Assembly: GCF_011045215.1 (NCBI RefSeq)
Contig: NZ_CP049201.1
Length of the DNA stretch: 64,000 nt
Reading direction: 5' to 3' (one strand)
From: Escherichia coli
Lineage (GTDB): Bacteria; Pseudomonadota; Gammaproteobacteria; Enterobacterales; Enterobacteriaceae
The notes below the pieces were generated by a model. It was not told the DNA's origin and did not search any database. It saw only the letters and a program-made list of their open reading frames with translations. Positions 57,845 through 62,076 of this stretch are shown piece after piece. Numbering within the stretch: the stretch's first letter is position 1; the number at the start of each line of letters is the position of its first letter. Both the position numbers and the translations under genes were made by a program.

Positions 57845-59146
57845 TCAAGCAGAGGTAAATTGCGGGATGTTATGCCATAACGGCCAGCTAAACGAGAAGC
57901 GGGCACCACCCAGTTCGCTGGTGTCACAATTAACCGTACCGCCCATTGCCAGTGCTATAGAGTGGACAATTGCCAGCCCCAGCCCGCAGCCGCCGGTTGA
58001 GCGATCCCGGCTGGGATCGAGGCGAACAAAAGGTTCAAAGATATGTTCGCGGTTTTCTGGGGCAATCCCTGGGCCATCATCCTCAACAATTAATGTCGCT
58101 CTATTCCCCGACAGTAGCAGGCTGGTTTCAACCGTTGAATGGCAGTAGCGCAGGGCGTTATTGAGCAAATTATCCAGCACACGCTCCATTAAGCGCATAT
58201 CCAACGCCGCATAATGGCCTTGCGCGAGCGTTTTTATCCGTACCGTTTTATCGGGCGTTACTGCCTGAATGTCTGCCAGATGCGTTGACAGCCACAACGG
58301 CAGGTCTGGTTCGCTAAGATGAAGCTCGTTTTGTGGGCGATCGAGTCGGGCATAAGTCAGCAGCTCTTCAATTAAAGCTTCAAGTTGACTGATATCACGA
58401 TTCAACGCCTGGGATTCGGCGGCGCTCAGGTTATCGCTCATCTCCAGTCGATAACGCAGGCGCACTAACGGTGTTCGCAGTTCGTGTGCAATACCGTCAA
58501 TAAGCTGTTTTTTGCTGGCTATCAAGGCGTTGATATTGTCCGCCATCTGGTTAAATGCGACGCCAAGGCGTTCAAAGCTCGAACCCTCATCAAAGTGGAT
58601 ACGTTCATTGAGATGCCCATCGCCAAATCGTTGCGCCGCAGCTTCCAGTTTTAACATATCCTGCCAGTGCGGACGCATCCAGATAAACACCGGAAAGGCG
58701 AGGGAAATGGCAATAAAAGCGATCAGGGCGATATCCAGCAATCGCATCTGATGGAGGTAATAAAGATAAGGAACAGGACCAACTGCCAGCACGTAGTGGC
58801 TGCGCGGGATACGTTGCAAAAACGTGTACTGATCGTCCAGGGCGACAATTTCGCCGCCACGCAGTCGGTGCATGGAAATATCATCAAGATGGTATTTACT
58901 CAGTGGCTCGACACGCAGATCGAAAGAGAGATTTAAATCCATCTCTTTCAGCGTCTTACCCCAGTCGTGTGGGGGGATCTCACGCAATTCGCTGCGCATC
59001 AGATACAGCGAACTGTTCATCAAATCATCCAGCGACTGTTTGCCCGCGCGTTCGGCGGTAAATTTGTACACCAGCCCAACCAGCAGAGACATCACAAGGA
59101 AGCAGACAAACAATAACAGGTAAAACTGGATAAACAATTTTTTCAT
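57845..59146 (-). CDS. rstB: sensor histidine kinase RstB
   Basis: 433-aa frame from ATG at 59146 (MKKLFIQFYLLLFVCFLVMSLL), HAMP/HisKA/HATPase. Confidence 0.95.
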   Translation of the reverse strand: MKKLFIQFYLLLFVCFLVMSLLVGLVYKFTAERAGKQSLDDLMNSSLYLMRSELREIPPHDWGKTLKEMDLNLSFDLRVEPLSKYHLDDISMHRLRGGEIVALDDQYTFLQRIPRSHYVLAVGPVPYLYYLHQMRLLDIALIAFIAISLAFPVFIWMRPHWQDMLKLEAAAQRFGDGHLNERIHFDEGSSFERLGVAFNQMADNINALIASKKQLIDGIAHELRTPLVRLRYRLEMSDNLSAAESQALNRDISQLEALIEELLTYARLDRPQNELHLSEPDLPLWLSTHLADIQAVTPDKTVRIKTLAQGHYAALDMRLMERVLDNLLNNALRYCHSTVETSLLLSGNRATLIVEDDGPGIAPENREHIFEPFVRLDPSRDRSTGGCGLGLAIVHSIALAMGGTVNCDTSELGGARFSFSWPLWHNIPQFTSA

Positions 59147-59176
59147 TGGCATCGCCCGCAACAGAATACTATTCGT

Positions 59177-59205
59177 ATTAATTCACGACTGTGGAGCAAT
59201 GTAAA
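59177..59205 (-). promoter_or_regulatory. candidate sigma70 promoter for rstB (TTTACA-N17-ATTAAT)
   Basis: Minus strand -35 TTTACA (59205-59200), 17-nt spacer, -10 ATTAAT (59182-59177), about 30 nt upstream of rstB ATG; prediction only. Confidence 0.3.
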
Positions 59206-59324
59206 CCGCCAACTGGATAAGGCCTTGTTTGGAAGATAATGTCCGGAACAGACGGATGTATCCCCGGCGTATTCATATTCAGTAAATTCAATTTTCCACC
59301 GGGGCTTGTTTATTATGCTAAGGT

Positions 59325-60668
59325 TTAATTTAACGTGACGCTTTGTTGTTCTTTAGTCTCTCTATCCTTAAGAAGACGGGCTGATATTACACCGGACATC
59401 ATTGAACCATTCACATTAAGCGCTGTTCTTGCCATATCAACGATCGGCTCTATGGCAATAAAAATACCCACTAATGCGACAGGGAAATTAAGTGTTGAAA
59501 GGACAATCAGCGCCGCGAATGTCCCACCACCACCTACGCCTGCTACCCCTATTGAGCCAAGCGCGATGGCAGGTAAAAGAGTAGCGAGGAATTGCAATGA
59601 GAAGGGATCGATACCCATTGTTGGAGCAATTATCGCCACCATCACGGCAGGATAAATCCCAGCGCAGCCATTTTGTCCCATGTTGGAACCAAAAGACGCT
59701 GCAATATTAGCAATCGTATTTGGAACCCCCAATTTTTCCAATGCAGAAATAGCCAGAGGAATTGAAGCCGCACTACTGCGAGAAACAAACGCAAAGGTAA
59801 GTACTTGCCAGACGGTCTTGTAATAGTTAACGGGGTTTTTACCTATTAACAGCAAAATGCCCGAGTGAACAATAAACATCACAAAAACGGCCAGATAACA
59901 GGCGACGATGAACCCGAGCAAATTGGTAAACTGTGAAAGCTGATACGTTGAGAAGACTTTCGCCATTAGTGCCATTACCCCATAAGGCGTCAGCGCAATG
60001 ACAATACGGACCATTTTCATTACCCATATTTGAATCGCGTTGATCCCCGCGCTCAATTTTTCGCCCTCTGCTGGTGCATCTTTCTTTACTTTTAACAGCG
60101 CAATACCAGCAAGAATTGTAAAGATGACGATGCCAATAACCGAAACACTTCTTGCCCCGGTCAGATCAAGGAAGAGGTTGGTTGGGATCAATGACGTAAT
60201 GAGTCGCGGTAAAGATACCGCAGCTGTTTTCGAGACGTCATCGCTGGTTAAAGAGGATTGCATATGACCAAAGGCGCTGGCATCAAGGCCAATTGCACTG
60301 GCAATAGCCAGGCCAACTAAACCTGCAATCATGACTAAACACAACATACAGGCAACAATAGTTAAAGACATCTTGCCAATACCAGCGCTATTTTCGAGCT
60401 TATTAATCGCTGAAAGAATAGAAATGAATATGAGTGGAACGGCAACAAGTTTTAATAAATTAACATAACCGTTACCAGCAATATTATACCATTCGATAAC
60501 GGTTTCACTGTTTGTCTCAGGAATGAAATGCAGGGAGATACCAATGATAGCCCCCAGGAAAATCGCGATAAAAACACTTTTGGAAAGGGATTCGCTCTTT
60601 TGATCCGTTTTGAAAATCCCCCATGAGCAGATCAAAAAAAGCACAATATATGTGAAAGTTGTAACCAT
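59325..60668 (-). CDS. DAACS-family (sodium:dicarboxylate symporter superfamily) transporter, YdjN/TcyP-like; absent from this position in K-12
   Basis: 447-aa polytopic ORF, ATG at 60668 with AGAGG upstream; shares motifs with E. coli YdjN/TcyP as recalled (W(Y/F)NI(A/V)GNGYV, LTFAF(V/T)SRSSAASIPL, FG(S/A)xxGQNGCAG, GVAGVGGG(G/A)TFAALIV); substrate not inferable. Confidence 0.85.
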   Translation of the reverse strand: MVTTFTYIVLFLICSWGIFKTDQKSESLSKSVFIAIFLGAIIGISLHFIPETNSETVIEWYNIAGNGYVNLLKLVAVPLIFISILSAINKLENSAGIGKMSLTIVACMLCLVMIAGLVGLAIASAIGLDASAFGHMQSSLTSDDVSKTAAVSLPRLITSLIPTNLFLDLTGARSVSVIGIVIFTILAGIALLKVKKDAPAEGEKLSAGINAIQIWVMKMVRIVIALTPYGVMALMAKVFSTYQLSQFTNLLGFIVACYLAVFVMFIVHSGILLLIGKNPVNYYKTVWQVLTFAFVSRSSAASIPLAISALEKLGVPNTIANIAASFGSNMGQNGCAGIYPAVMVAIIAPTMGIDPFSLQFLATLLPAIALGSIGVAGVGGGGTFAALIVLSTLNFPVALVGIFIAIEPIVDMARTALNVNGSMMSGVISARLLKDRETKEQQSVTLN

Positions 60669-60722
60669 TTTTTAAGCCTCTTGCCTCATTCAGCACCTGA
60701 AATGCCGGAAAGAGTTTGTTGT

Positions 60723-60747
60723 AAAAAATCTGCGCCATAAGACGCAG
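60723..60747 (-). terminator. hairpin plus U-run between rstA and the inserted transporter gene (rstA terminator or leader attenuator)
   Basis: Minus strand CUGCGUC-UUAU-GGCGCAG followed by AUUUUUU; a TATAAT hexamer (60763-60758) lies just upstream. Confidence 0.45.
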
Positions 60748-60880
60748 GGACGAGGCGATTATAGAGAAATTTTTTCTCATATTCACATCAAATGTAGGGG
60801 GGTTGGAATTTGAATAAGCTCTTATTAATTGAATTCGTTAATTGTTCTCTTTTTCAGATGAACAAATATTAGTCATCTGA

Positions 60881-61612
60881 TTATTTATTGTCACTATCCC
60901 ATGCATGAGGCGCAAAAAGATAGCCTTTGTTACGCACGGTTTTAATGCGATAAGGTTCTGCGGCGTTATCGAGCAGTTTTTTTCTTAACCGCGAAATAGC
61001 CACGTCCACGCTACGATCCAGTCCGTCATAACTGACGCCGCGTAAATTTTTCAGCAATGCATCGCGGTCCATGATTTGCCCGGCATGGGTAGCTAATTCC
61101 CACAATAATTCGAAATCAGCTGTTGAGAGCGAGATTTCAGTGTTAGCCAGGGTGACTACGCGGTTGATAGGATCGATGGTCAACGTGCCGAAATGCAGGG
61201 CTTTGTAGGGAGTCAGAGACGTTTCCTGAAGACCTTTGGTCAGTGTGGCTTGCTCATTCTGACGCAAATGCAAACGTAAACGCGCTAGCAAAACAGCAGG
61301 GGGCGTCGTTTTGAGAATATAGTCGCAGGCACCCATTTCCAGTGCCAGGATGTGGTTCATATCGCTATCGAGAGAGGTTAGAAGAACAATCGGTCCAGAC
61401 CACTTTGCGCGTAAATCACGACAAATGGTCATGCCGTCCTTGCCTGGTAGCATGATGTCGAGTAACACCAAATCCGGATTTTCTCGCAAAATGGTTTCTT
61501 CGGCATGGTCGCCGCGCGGCTCTACGGTAACCTGCATATCATGTTTTGCCAGGTACGCGGCAATCAGTGAACCGACTTCCGCATCATCTTCCACAAATAC
61601 GATAGTGTTCAT
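60881..61612 (-). CDS. rstA: OmpR-family response regulator RstA (C-terminus differs from K-12 as recalled)
   Basis: Frame from ATG at 61612 (MNTIVFVEDDAEVGSLIAAYL), receiver plus winged-helix domains; ends ...APHAWDSDNK. Confidence 0.92.
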   Translation of the reverse strand: MNTIVFVEDDAEVGSLIAAYLAKHDMQVTVEPRGDHAEETILRENPDLVLLDIMLPGKDGMTICRDLRAKWSGPIVLLTSLDSDMNHILALEMGACDYILKTTPPAVLLARLRLHLRQNEQATLTKGLQETSLTPYKALHFGTLTIDPINRVVTLANTEISLSTADFELLWELATHAGQIMDRDALLKNLRGVSYDGLDRSVDVAISRLRKKLLDNAAEPYRIKTVRNKGYLFAPHAWDSDNK

Positions 61613-61658
61613 AACATTCACGGTAGATATAAAAACGTCACAATACACCGCGCTGTTT

Positions 61659-61675
61659 TTACTTACTATCAATCG
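61659..61675 (-). promoter_or_regulatory. putative PhoP box in rstA promoter
   Basis: Minus strand TGTTTA-GAAAC-GATTGA about 50-65 nt upstream of rstA ATG; rstA is PhoP-activated by established knowledge; second half-site is weak. Confidence 0.35.
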
Positions 61676-61740
61676 TTTCTAAACAAGTTTTCATCAGGTA
61701 TTCTACTGATGACTTGTTATGGAAGTGTTAAGGTAAAAAG

Positions 61741-62076
61741 ATGGGGCTGGTAATCAAAGCCGCGCTCGGTGCGCTGGTAGTGCTGTTGATTGGTGTTTTA
61801 GCAAAAACGAAAAATTATTATATCGCCGGGCTGATTCCACTTTTCCCGACCTTTGCGCTTATCGCGCATTATATTGTTGCCAGCGAACGCGGCATTGAAG
61901 CCTTACGCGCAACCATCATTTTTAGTATGTGGTCGATTATTCCCTATTTTGTTTACCTGGTGTCGCTGTGGTATTTCACCGGAATGATGCGCTTGCCCGC
62001 CGCTTTTGTTGGTTCTGTTGCGTGTTGGGGGATAAGCGCATGGGTGTTGATTATATGCTGGATAAAGCTGCATTAA
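61741..62076 (+). CDS. ydgC: GlpM-family inner membrane protein YdgC
   Basis: 111-aa hydrophobic ORF. Confidence 0.88.
   Translation: MGLVIKAALGALVVLLIGVLAKTKNYYIAGLIPLFPTFALIAHYIVASERGIEALRATIIFSMWSIIPYFVYLVSLWYFTGMMRLPAAFVGSVACWGISAWVLIICWIKLH

What the first reader, a model, noticed from the sequence alone, without database searches (positions are those of the whole stretch)
60854..60880. Inverted repeat at the rstA stop codon, at the rstA-proximal edge of the insert
TCAGATGA-N11-TCATCTGA (8-bp arms) abuts the rstA TAA, exactly where the sequence departs from the compact K-12 rstA-rstB junction. It could be a remnant of the recombination or insertion event, or a structural element of the altered rstA 3' end.
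Basis: seen in the sequence. Interest (0 to 1): 0.25.

Follow-up and report, generated by a model that had tools for sequence, protein, structure and literature searches.

The report
Ordinary hairpin palindrome after rstA stop
The 8-bp inverted repeat is real and belongs to the acquired DNA between rstA and rstB, but it is not an insertion scar: it is a single-copy, AT-rich palindrome barely above chance, at most a weak stem-loop at the end of the rstA message.

Summary
TCAGATGA-N11-TCATCTGA is at 60854-60880 and abuts the rstA stop (60881-60883, minus strand). Against insert-free E. coli, window 59147-60896 (1750 nt) replaces 7 nt. The break lies in the last rstA codon, so the repeat sits 16 nt inside insert-specific DNA and is absent from insert-free genomes.

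There is no partner repeat at the rstB edge and no target duplication. Plasmid copies of the cassette, in IS1 and ISKpn26 composites, stop short of the repeat. The scar idea is therefore not supported.

A perfect 8-nt-arm repeat turns up in 8% of shuffles of this 228-nt spacer. The hairpin is weak (-9.9 kcal/mol, z -1.6) and has no U-tract in the rstA sense. It is invariant in four near-identical copies and absent upstream of orthologous transporters.

The only support for a role is positional. Four Citrobacter loci with rstA directly upstream of the transporter also carry a hairpin just after the rstA stop, GC-rich and unrelated in sequence.

The insert is a TcyP-like transporter. It is standard in Shigella flexneri and present in 1 of 5426 complete E. 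coli genomes. Citrobacter and Kluyvera carry a homologue in the same rstA-rstB slot.

Verdict: ordinary, low interest.

The parts
60854..60880 (.). The inverted repeat: arms 60854-60861 (TCAGATGA) and 60873-60880 (TCATCTGA), loop 60862-60872. In the rstA sense it reads UCAGAUGA-CUAAUAUUUGU-UCAUCUGA.
   Evidence: Fold energy is -9.9 kcal/mol in a 61-nt context, z -1.6.
60881..60883 (-). rstA stop codon TAA, directly abutting the repeat. In S. flexneri-type copies it is CAA and the stop moves into the loop.
60884..60896 (-). Insert-encoded rstA tail: the third base of codon 240 plus S-D-N-K. RstA ends HAWDSDNK* instead of HAWE*.
60881..61612 (-). rstA coding sequence (243 aa).
   Evidence: NCBIfam RstA equivalog, 485 bits; annotation of L001.
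59147..60896 (.). Insert-specific segment (1750 nt) that replaces the 7 nt CGCTTAT of insert-free E. coli. No target duplication and no terminal repeats.
   Evidence: Flanks are ordinary E. coli sequence up to the breakpoints.
60804..60896 (.). AT-rich spacer (25% GC) holding the repeat. No homologue in orthologous loci. Absent from the IS1 composite, and only 60804-60841 is present in the ISKpn26 composite.
60758..60786 (-). The transporter's own promoter, conserved in orthologues: -35-like GTGAAT at 60786-60781 and -10 TATAAT at 60763-60758. It lies about 90 nt downstream of the repeat in the rstA sense.
60676..60747 (-). Conserved 5' leader of the transporter. A covarying hairpin (60747-60730) with a T run is followed by an invariant 39-nt hairpin (60714-60676) that pairs with the Shine-Dalgarno sequence.
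   Evidence: No Rfam match.
59325..60668 (-). Sodium:dicarboxylate symporter family (TcyP-like) transporter, 447 aa.
57845..59146 (-). rstB. Its ATG (59146-59144) is the other edge of the insert.

Best explanation
The repeat is an ordinary single-copy palindrome in the AT-rich spacer that arrived with the transporter cassette. That spacer lies between a donor-type rstA 3' end (tail DSDNK*) and the transporter's own promoter. On the rstA transcript it folds into a weak stem-loop of 8 pairs (3 of them G-C) with an 11-nt loop, immediately after the stop codon. If it does anything, the inferred role is a modest 3' stem-loop on the rstA message. Such a loop could slow 3'-to-5' decay or pause RNA polymerase, so marking rstA off from the inserted gene. 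It would not terminate efficiently, which would leave read-through towards the transporter and rstB possible. It would then be the positional counterpart of the stronger GC-rich hairpins that follow rstA in Citrobacter. Shown here: its location, its membership of the insert, its ability to fold, and the absence of scar features. Inferred: any effect at the RNA level. It may equally have no effect at all.
For: It lies inside insert-specific DNA and is absent from insert-free genomes. It folds at -9.9 kcal/mol directly after the stop. Four Citrobacter loci with rstA immediately upstream of the orthologous transporter also have an extended RstA tail (HAWDDEPRK*). They also have a hairpin 0-10 nt after the stop, at -13.7 to -24.2 kcal/mol with z -3.0 to -4.1, followed as here by A-rich sequence in L012 and L015. 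The transporter has its own conserved promoter and leader about 90 nt further on, so the repeat is not needed for its expression. The transporter and rstA are equally diverged from Citrobacter and Kluyvera (73-75% against 72-75% nt). This fits a donor in which rstA and the transporter were already neighbours.
Against: The hairpin is not significantly more stable than shuffles (z -1.6; 16 of 200 fold as well). A repeat of this kind arises by chance in 8% of shuffled spacers. There is no U-tract in the rstA sense. A ribosome terminating at the abutting stop would cover the 5' arm, and in S. flexneri-type copies that arm is translated. The only available copies are 98-99% identical, so conservation carries no information. 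The Citrobacter hairpins are not alignable with it, so there is no covariation evidence. Kluyvera spacers show no significant hairpin.
Confidence: 0.45

Rival explanations
1. It is a pure chance palindrome in AT-rich acquired spacer DNA, with no role at the DNA or RNA level.
For: At least one such repeat appears in 8% of shuffles of this spacer, and 38% of shuffles of the whole insert. Fold z is -1.6. It is not conserved upstream of any orthologue. It has no Rfam match and is single-copy.
Against: It sits exactly where Citrobacter relatives carry a significant hairpin. It shows no substitution in four copies, although only about 0.7 would be expected.
Confidence: 0.35
2. It is an operator. A dimeric DNA-binding protein would bind the perfect dyad, which overlaps a promoter-like site (-35 GTGACA 60894-60889, -10 TAATAT 60871-60866 in the loop), and control transcription entering the transporter.
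For: The dyad is perfect (8 + 8 nt), and the promoter-like hexamers (9 of 12 matches) have the -10 in the loop. A backbone palindrome upstream of rstA (61691-61712, TCATCAG-N8-CTGATGA) has a similar half-site.
Against: Promoter-like sites in the region are no more frequent than in shuffles (4 against 6.0). Half-site centres are 19 bp apart, which from general knowledge is unusual for dimeric regulators. The motif is absent upstream of 17 orthologous genes. The insert carries no regulator gene. The transporter has its own conserved promoter and leader.
Confidence: 0.08
3. It is a plus-strand terminator: a relic of a lost gene convergent with rstA, or a stop for antisense transcripts. Only on the plus strand is the hairpin followed by a T-rich tail (TTATTTATTG).
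For: The sequence shows it directly: U-rich on both sides on the plus strand, A-rich on both sides in the rstA sense. Kluyvera loci have a gene convergent with rstA between rstA and the transporter.
Against: No plus-strand gene or gene remnant lies upstream. The C-terminus of the Kluyvera gene is unrelated to the plus-strand reading frame here. The stem is weak with an 11-nt loop and was not called by the terminator scan. The T-rich tail is simply the complement of the rstA tail codons.
Confidence: 0.07
4. It is a scar or site of the recombination that created the insert. One variant is that the rstA-proximal 50 nt is a rearranged fragment of foreign AT-rich DNA joined through microhomology.
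For: It is close to the insert edge (16 nt). There is one unexplained coincidence. A metagenomic RHS-like gene (L031/L032) contains an exact 23-mer equal to window 60884-60906. Thirty-seven nt further, in inverted orientation, it also contains an exact 15-mer equal to 60855-60869.
Against: Both arms are at one end. There is no counterpart at the rstB edge, no target duplication and no terminal repeats. The IS1 and ISKpn26 composite copies exclude it. Ten of the 23 matching nt are rstA backbone shared by all E. coli. No similarity extends beyond the two exact words, and E. coli genomes hold no homologue of that gene.
Confidence: 0.05

Closest known systems
Intercistronic or 3'-UTR stem-loops that protect the upstream part of a polycistronic mRNA
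   Same: A hairpin immediately downstream of a cistron and upstream of further genes on the same strand, with no U-tract, so read-through is possible.
   Different: It is weak and AT-rich (-9.9 kcal/mol, not beyond shuffles). It is single-copy with no covariation support, and no transcript data are available.
Rho-independent (intrinsic) terminators
   Same: A stem-loop next to a stop codon, with a T-rich tail on the plus strand.
   Different: In the rstA sense the tail is A-rich. The stem has only 3 G-C pairs and an 11-nt loop. The plus strand has no gene to terminate.
Terminal inverted repeats and target-site duplications of insertion sequences or MITEs
   Same: An inverted repeat near the edge of an inserted segment.
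   Different: Both arms are at the same end and 16 nt inside it. There is no duplication. Real IS-mediated copies of this cassette (IS1, ISKpn26) have their own ends and leave the repeat behind.
GC-rich hairpins after rstA in Citrobacter loci with the rstA-transporter arrangement (L012, L014, L015, L021)
   Same: The same position: 0-10 nt after the stop of an RstA with an extended tail, upstream of the orthologous transporter's promoter. In L012 and L015 A-rich sequence follows, as in the window.
   Different: The sequence is unrelated, and the Citrobacter hairpins are much more stable (z -3 to -4). Homology of the spacers cannot be shown.

Membership tests
Rho-independent terminator | Stable, usually G+C-rich stem-loop | tested here: inconclusive
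   8 pairs, 3 of them G-C, 11-nt loop, -9.9 kcal/mol, z -1.6. The terminator scan did not call it.
Rho-independent terminator | U-tract directly 3' of the stem on the transcribed strand | tested here: not met
   In the rstA sense the stem is followed by AAAAAGAGAAC. A T-rich tail exists only on the plus strand, which has no upstream gene.
Transposable-element end or insertion scar | Inverted repeats at the two ends of the inserted segment | tested here: not met
   Both arms are at 60854-60880. The rstB edge (59147 onward) has nothing similar.
Transposable-element end or insertion scar | Target-site duplication flanking the insert | tested here: not met
   The 7 backbone nt CGCTTAT are replaced, and nothing is duplicated.
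Transposable-element end or insertion scar | The repeat travels with the mobile unit | tested here: not met
   The IS1 composite carries 59147-60803 and the ISKpn26 composite carries 59318-60841. Neither includes the repeat.
REP/BIME-type repeated extragenic palindromes | Many copies per genome with a shared consensus | tested here: not met
   It occurs once in the window. In 5426 E. coli genomes it is found only at this locus, in one genome.
Palindromic operator | Dyad symmetry | tested here: met
   Perfect 8 + 8 nt.
Palindromic operator | Motif conserved upstream of orthologous target genes | tested here: not met
   No CAGATG/CATCTG dyad occurs within 600 nt upstream of 17 orthologues.
Palindromic operator | A cognate binding protein | not testable with these tools
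   The insert has no regulator gene. Binding cannot be assayed here.
mRNA 3' stabilising stem-loop | Structure conserved with compensatory changes in relatives | tested here: inconclusive
   The only alignable copies are 98-99% identical and invariant. Citrobacter has non-alignable hairpins at the same place.
mRNA 3' stabilising stem-loop | Transcript 3' ends or decay intermediates mapping to the hairpin | not testable with these tools
   This needs Term-seq or 3' RACE in an insert-bearing strain.

The most novel reading that the evidence does not exclude
The rstA-proximal roughly 50 nt of the insert, comprising the altered RstA tail and the repeat, could be a rearranged fragment of foreign AT-rich DNA related to an RHS-type toxin gene. 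It would have been joined to rstA through the 10-nt microhomology ATGCATGGGA, with the palindrome created by a fold-back or inversion during joining. This reading rests only on the exact 23-mer plus inverted 15-mer shared with metagenome contigs L031 and L032.
Probability: 0.03. Interest if true: 0.45.

Novelty: not a real feature. Interest (0 to 1): 0.1.

Why it matters
It matters little in itself. The result removes a candidate 'junction scar' and fixes the exact breakpoints of the rstA-rstB insert. The context is more useful than the repeat. The slot between a response-regulator gene and its kinase gene holds a TcyP-like transporter in S. flexneri, in rare E. coli, in Citrobacter and in Kluyvera. 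IS1 and ISKpn26 have since mobilised the same cassette onto plasmids. The transporter also carries a strongly conserved leader that matches no Rfam family.

Tried and rejected
- **Rfam.** A scan of 59000-61800 at E <= 1 gave only a chance miRNA hit, inside the transporter coding sequence.
- **Motif in orthologues.** I searched for the palindrome or its half-sites upstream of 17 orthologous transporters. There were none, apart from two isolated hexamers around -420.
- **Donor search.** The genome-contig scan gave 16 loci, the closest at 85% aa. The 5.8-billion-protein search showed nothing between 85% and 96% identity. A search with the RstA C-terminal 44 aa returned only fragments with other tails.
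- **Metagenome scan with the altered rstA 3' end.** It hit only an unrelated RHS-like gene. That gene has no homologue in E. coli genomes.
- **Relic of the 3' end of the convergent Kluyvera gene.** Rejected, because the C-terminus of that isochorismatase-like protein is unrelated.
- **Divergent recombination tract in the flanks.** None was found. The nearest differences from a typical E. coli are 78 nt away in rstA and 332 nt away in rstB.
- **Known binding sites.** Comparison by eye with the RstA box and the LexA, CRP and FNR consensus sites, recalled from memory, showed no convincing match.
- **Literature.** A search found no paper on this insert.

Full report
**Observation.** The window has TCAGATGA-ACAAATATTAG-TCATCTGA at 60854-60880, once only. 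rstA lies on the minus strand (60881-61612). It matches the RstA equivalog at 485 bits, and its TAA (60881-60883) touches the repeat. RstA here has 243 aa and ends HAWDSDNK*, against HAWE* in ordinary E. coli.

The zero expectation is for that exact sequence. The fair null is any perfect repeat with arms of at least 8 nt and a loop of 3-20 nt:

| Region | Observed | Shuffles |
|---|---|---|
| Whole window | 38 | 14.6 +/- 3.9 |
| 1750-nt insert | 2 | 0.47 expected |
| 228-nt spacer (35% GC) | 1 | at least one in 8% of shuffles |

The repeat is real but only marginally beyond chance.

**Breakpoints.** Megablast of 59000-61100 against 5426 complete E. coli genomes matched the rstA and rstB flanks in 5420. 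Only one genome, NZ_OZ197100.1, has the intervening DNA.

Base-by-base comparison with two insert-free genomes (L002, L003) shows that window 59147-60896 (1750 nt) replaces the 7 nt CGCTTAT. One break is at the rstB ATG. The other is at the third base of the last rstA codon. The repeat therefore begins 16 nt inside insert-specific DNA, not at the departure point, and insert-free genomes lack it.

There is no target-site duplication and no matching repeat at the rstB edge. The flanks are ordinary E. coli sequence right up to the breaks. The nearest differences are 78 nt away in rstA and 332 nt away in rstB.

**What the insert is.** It carries one gene (59325-60668, minus strand), a 447-aa sodium:dicarboxylate symporter family protein that sources annotate as TcyP-like.

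It is the normal state in Shigella flexneri. The 439-aa form and a 247-aa RstA each occur on at least 1000 contigs, including strains 301 and 2457T (locus L007). In E. coli proper it is rare.

Orthologues at 79-86% aa identity lie directly downstream of rstA in four Citrobacter species. In five Kluyvera-type loci they lie about 930 nt downstream of rstA. rstB was found further downstream wherever the fetched flank reached far enough (L017, L018, L021, L023). In Salmonella, K. aerogenes and two metagenomic contigs the gene sits at other sites.

The transporter's divergence from the Citrobacter and Kluyvera copies (72.9-74.8% nt) equals that of the adjacent rstA (72.0-74.9%). This fits a donor, or an old allele, in which rstA and the transporter were already linked. 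No closer donor was found.

**The repeat is not part of the mobile or conserved unit.** DNA homology with orthologous loci starts only 50-100 nt upstream of the transporter ATG. The 93-nt stretch 60804-60896, which holds the repeat and is 25% GC, has no counterpart.

A 99%-identical copy of the cassette sits on plasmids in two forms:

- Twelve PLSDB plasmid records carry 59147-60803 between two IS1 copies.
- One plasmid carries 59318-60841 between two ISKpn26 copies.

Both forms stop short of the repeat.

The transporter has its own conserved promoter: -35-like at 60786-60781 and TATAAT at 60763-60758. Its leader lies about 90 nt downstream of the repeat.

**What the repeat could do.** In the rstA sense it folds at -9.9 kcal/mol (z -1.6; 16 of 200 shuffles fold as well). 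A-rich sequence follows, so it is not an intrinsic terminator for rstA (sequence).

On the plus strand a T-rich tail follows, but that tail is simply the complement of the rstA tail codons. No plus-strand gene precedes it.

A promoter-like site has its -10 in the loop. However, such sites are no more frequent here than in shuffles.

The motif is absent upstream of orthologues. It matches no Rfam family and is single-copy in E. coli.

The four available copies are 98-99% identical and invariant in the repeat, which tells us nothing. In S. flexneri-type copies TAA has become CAA, so the 5' arm is translated and the stop falls in the loop.

The one positive hint is positional. All four Citrobacter loci with rstA directly upstream of the transporter also have an extended RstA tail. 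They also have a significant GC-rich hairpin just after the stop, at -13.7 to -24.2 kcal/mol with z -3.0 to -4.1. A-rich sequence follows in L012 and L015. Kluyvera spacers show nothing significant.

**Verdict.** The repeat belongs to the insert. The 'remnant of recombination' reading is not supported.

The best reading is an ordinary spacer palindrome that at most forms a weak 3' stem-loop on the rstA message (0.45). Next most likely is pure chance with no role (0.35). Operator, plus-strand terminator and scar readings are minor. Interest is low.

**Unexplained.** The metagenome scan with the altered rstA 3' end hit an RHS-like gene in an AT-rich organism. That gene shares an exact 23-mer (window 60884-60906) and, 37 nt away in inverted orientation, an exact 15-mer (60855-60869).

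By my estimate, a 21-mer hit alone is plausible by chance in a collection of that size, but the neighbouring 15-mer is not. However, 10 of the 23 nt are rstA backbone. No further similarity exists, and E. coli has no homologue of the gene. I treat it as a probable fluke and record it.

Noticed in passing
window 60676-60786 (minus strand); same element in L004, L005, L008-L019, L021-L024, L026: The transporter carries a strongly conserved 5' leader at five different genomic sites. The conserved TATAAT is followed by a hairpin whose sequence differs in every genus while its pairs are kept (7 pairs with compensatory changes in 20 loci). A T run follows in the window copy. Last comes an invariant 39-nt hairpin, CTCTTTCCGGCATTTCAGGTGCTGAATGAGGCAAGAGGC, that pairs with the Shine-Dalgarno sequence. 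There is no Rfam match at E <= 1. This looks like a cis-regulatory RNA absent from Rfam and is more interesting than the repeat.
   Followed up: partly
window 59147-60803; L030 892-2548; L029 2650-4173; 12 PLSDB plasmid records: The same cassette (99.3-99.5% identical) sits on conjugative plasmids of E. coli, Shigella and Klebsiella, as an IS1-flanked segment and as an ISKpn26-flanked segment. The inner end of the IS1 copy coincides exactly with the insert's rstB-side breakpoint (59147). I could not explain that coincidence.
   Followed up: partly
window 59147-60896 compared with L009, L011, L012, L014, L015, L017, L018, L021, L023: The gap between rstA and rstB is a recurrent cargo site. Citrobacter and Kluyvera hold the orthologous transporter there together with other genes, including an isochorismatase-like gene. 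The transporter and rstA are equally diverged between genera, so the linkage may be old and the E. coli/Shigella 'insert' may derive from a relative with the same arrangement.
   Followed up: partly
L031 9877-9951, L032 9490-9564, against window 60855-60906: A metagenomic RHS-like gene (33-36% GC) shares an exact 23-mer and, 37 nt away in inverted orientation, an exact 15-mer with the rstA tail and repeat region. The peptide AWDSDNK is encoded in the same frame in both. It is probably chance, but my estimate of the joint probability is low.
   Followed up: partly
window 61691-61712: There is a second palindrome, TCATCAG-GTATTCTA-CTGATGA, in the divergent rstA-ydgC promoter region. It is present in insert-free genomes. 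Its half-site resembles that of the repeat (TCATCWG), but the arms are in the opposite arrangement.
   Followed up: no
window 59144-59155: Upstream of the rstB ATG the window reads GCGATGCCAATGAAAAAA, where insert-free E. coli has GCGATGAAAAAA. An in-frame upstream ATG (MPMKKLF...) therefore exists, and the rstB-side breakpoint could be placed 9 nt further in, with a 6-nt indel.
   Followed up: no
L007 and L028 (S. flexneri-type), column 264 of alignment A1: In S. flexneri-type copies the transporter's ATG (window 60668) is ACG, so the gene is annotated from a GTG eight codons downstream (439 aa). Strains 301 and 2457T carry a 348-aa annotation, which suggests truncation in some lineages.
   Followed up: no
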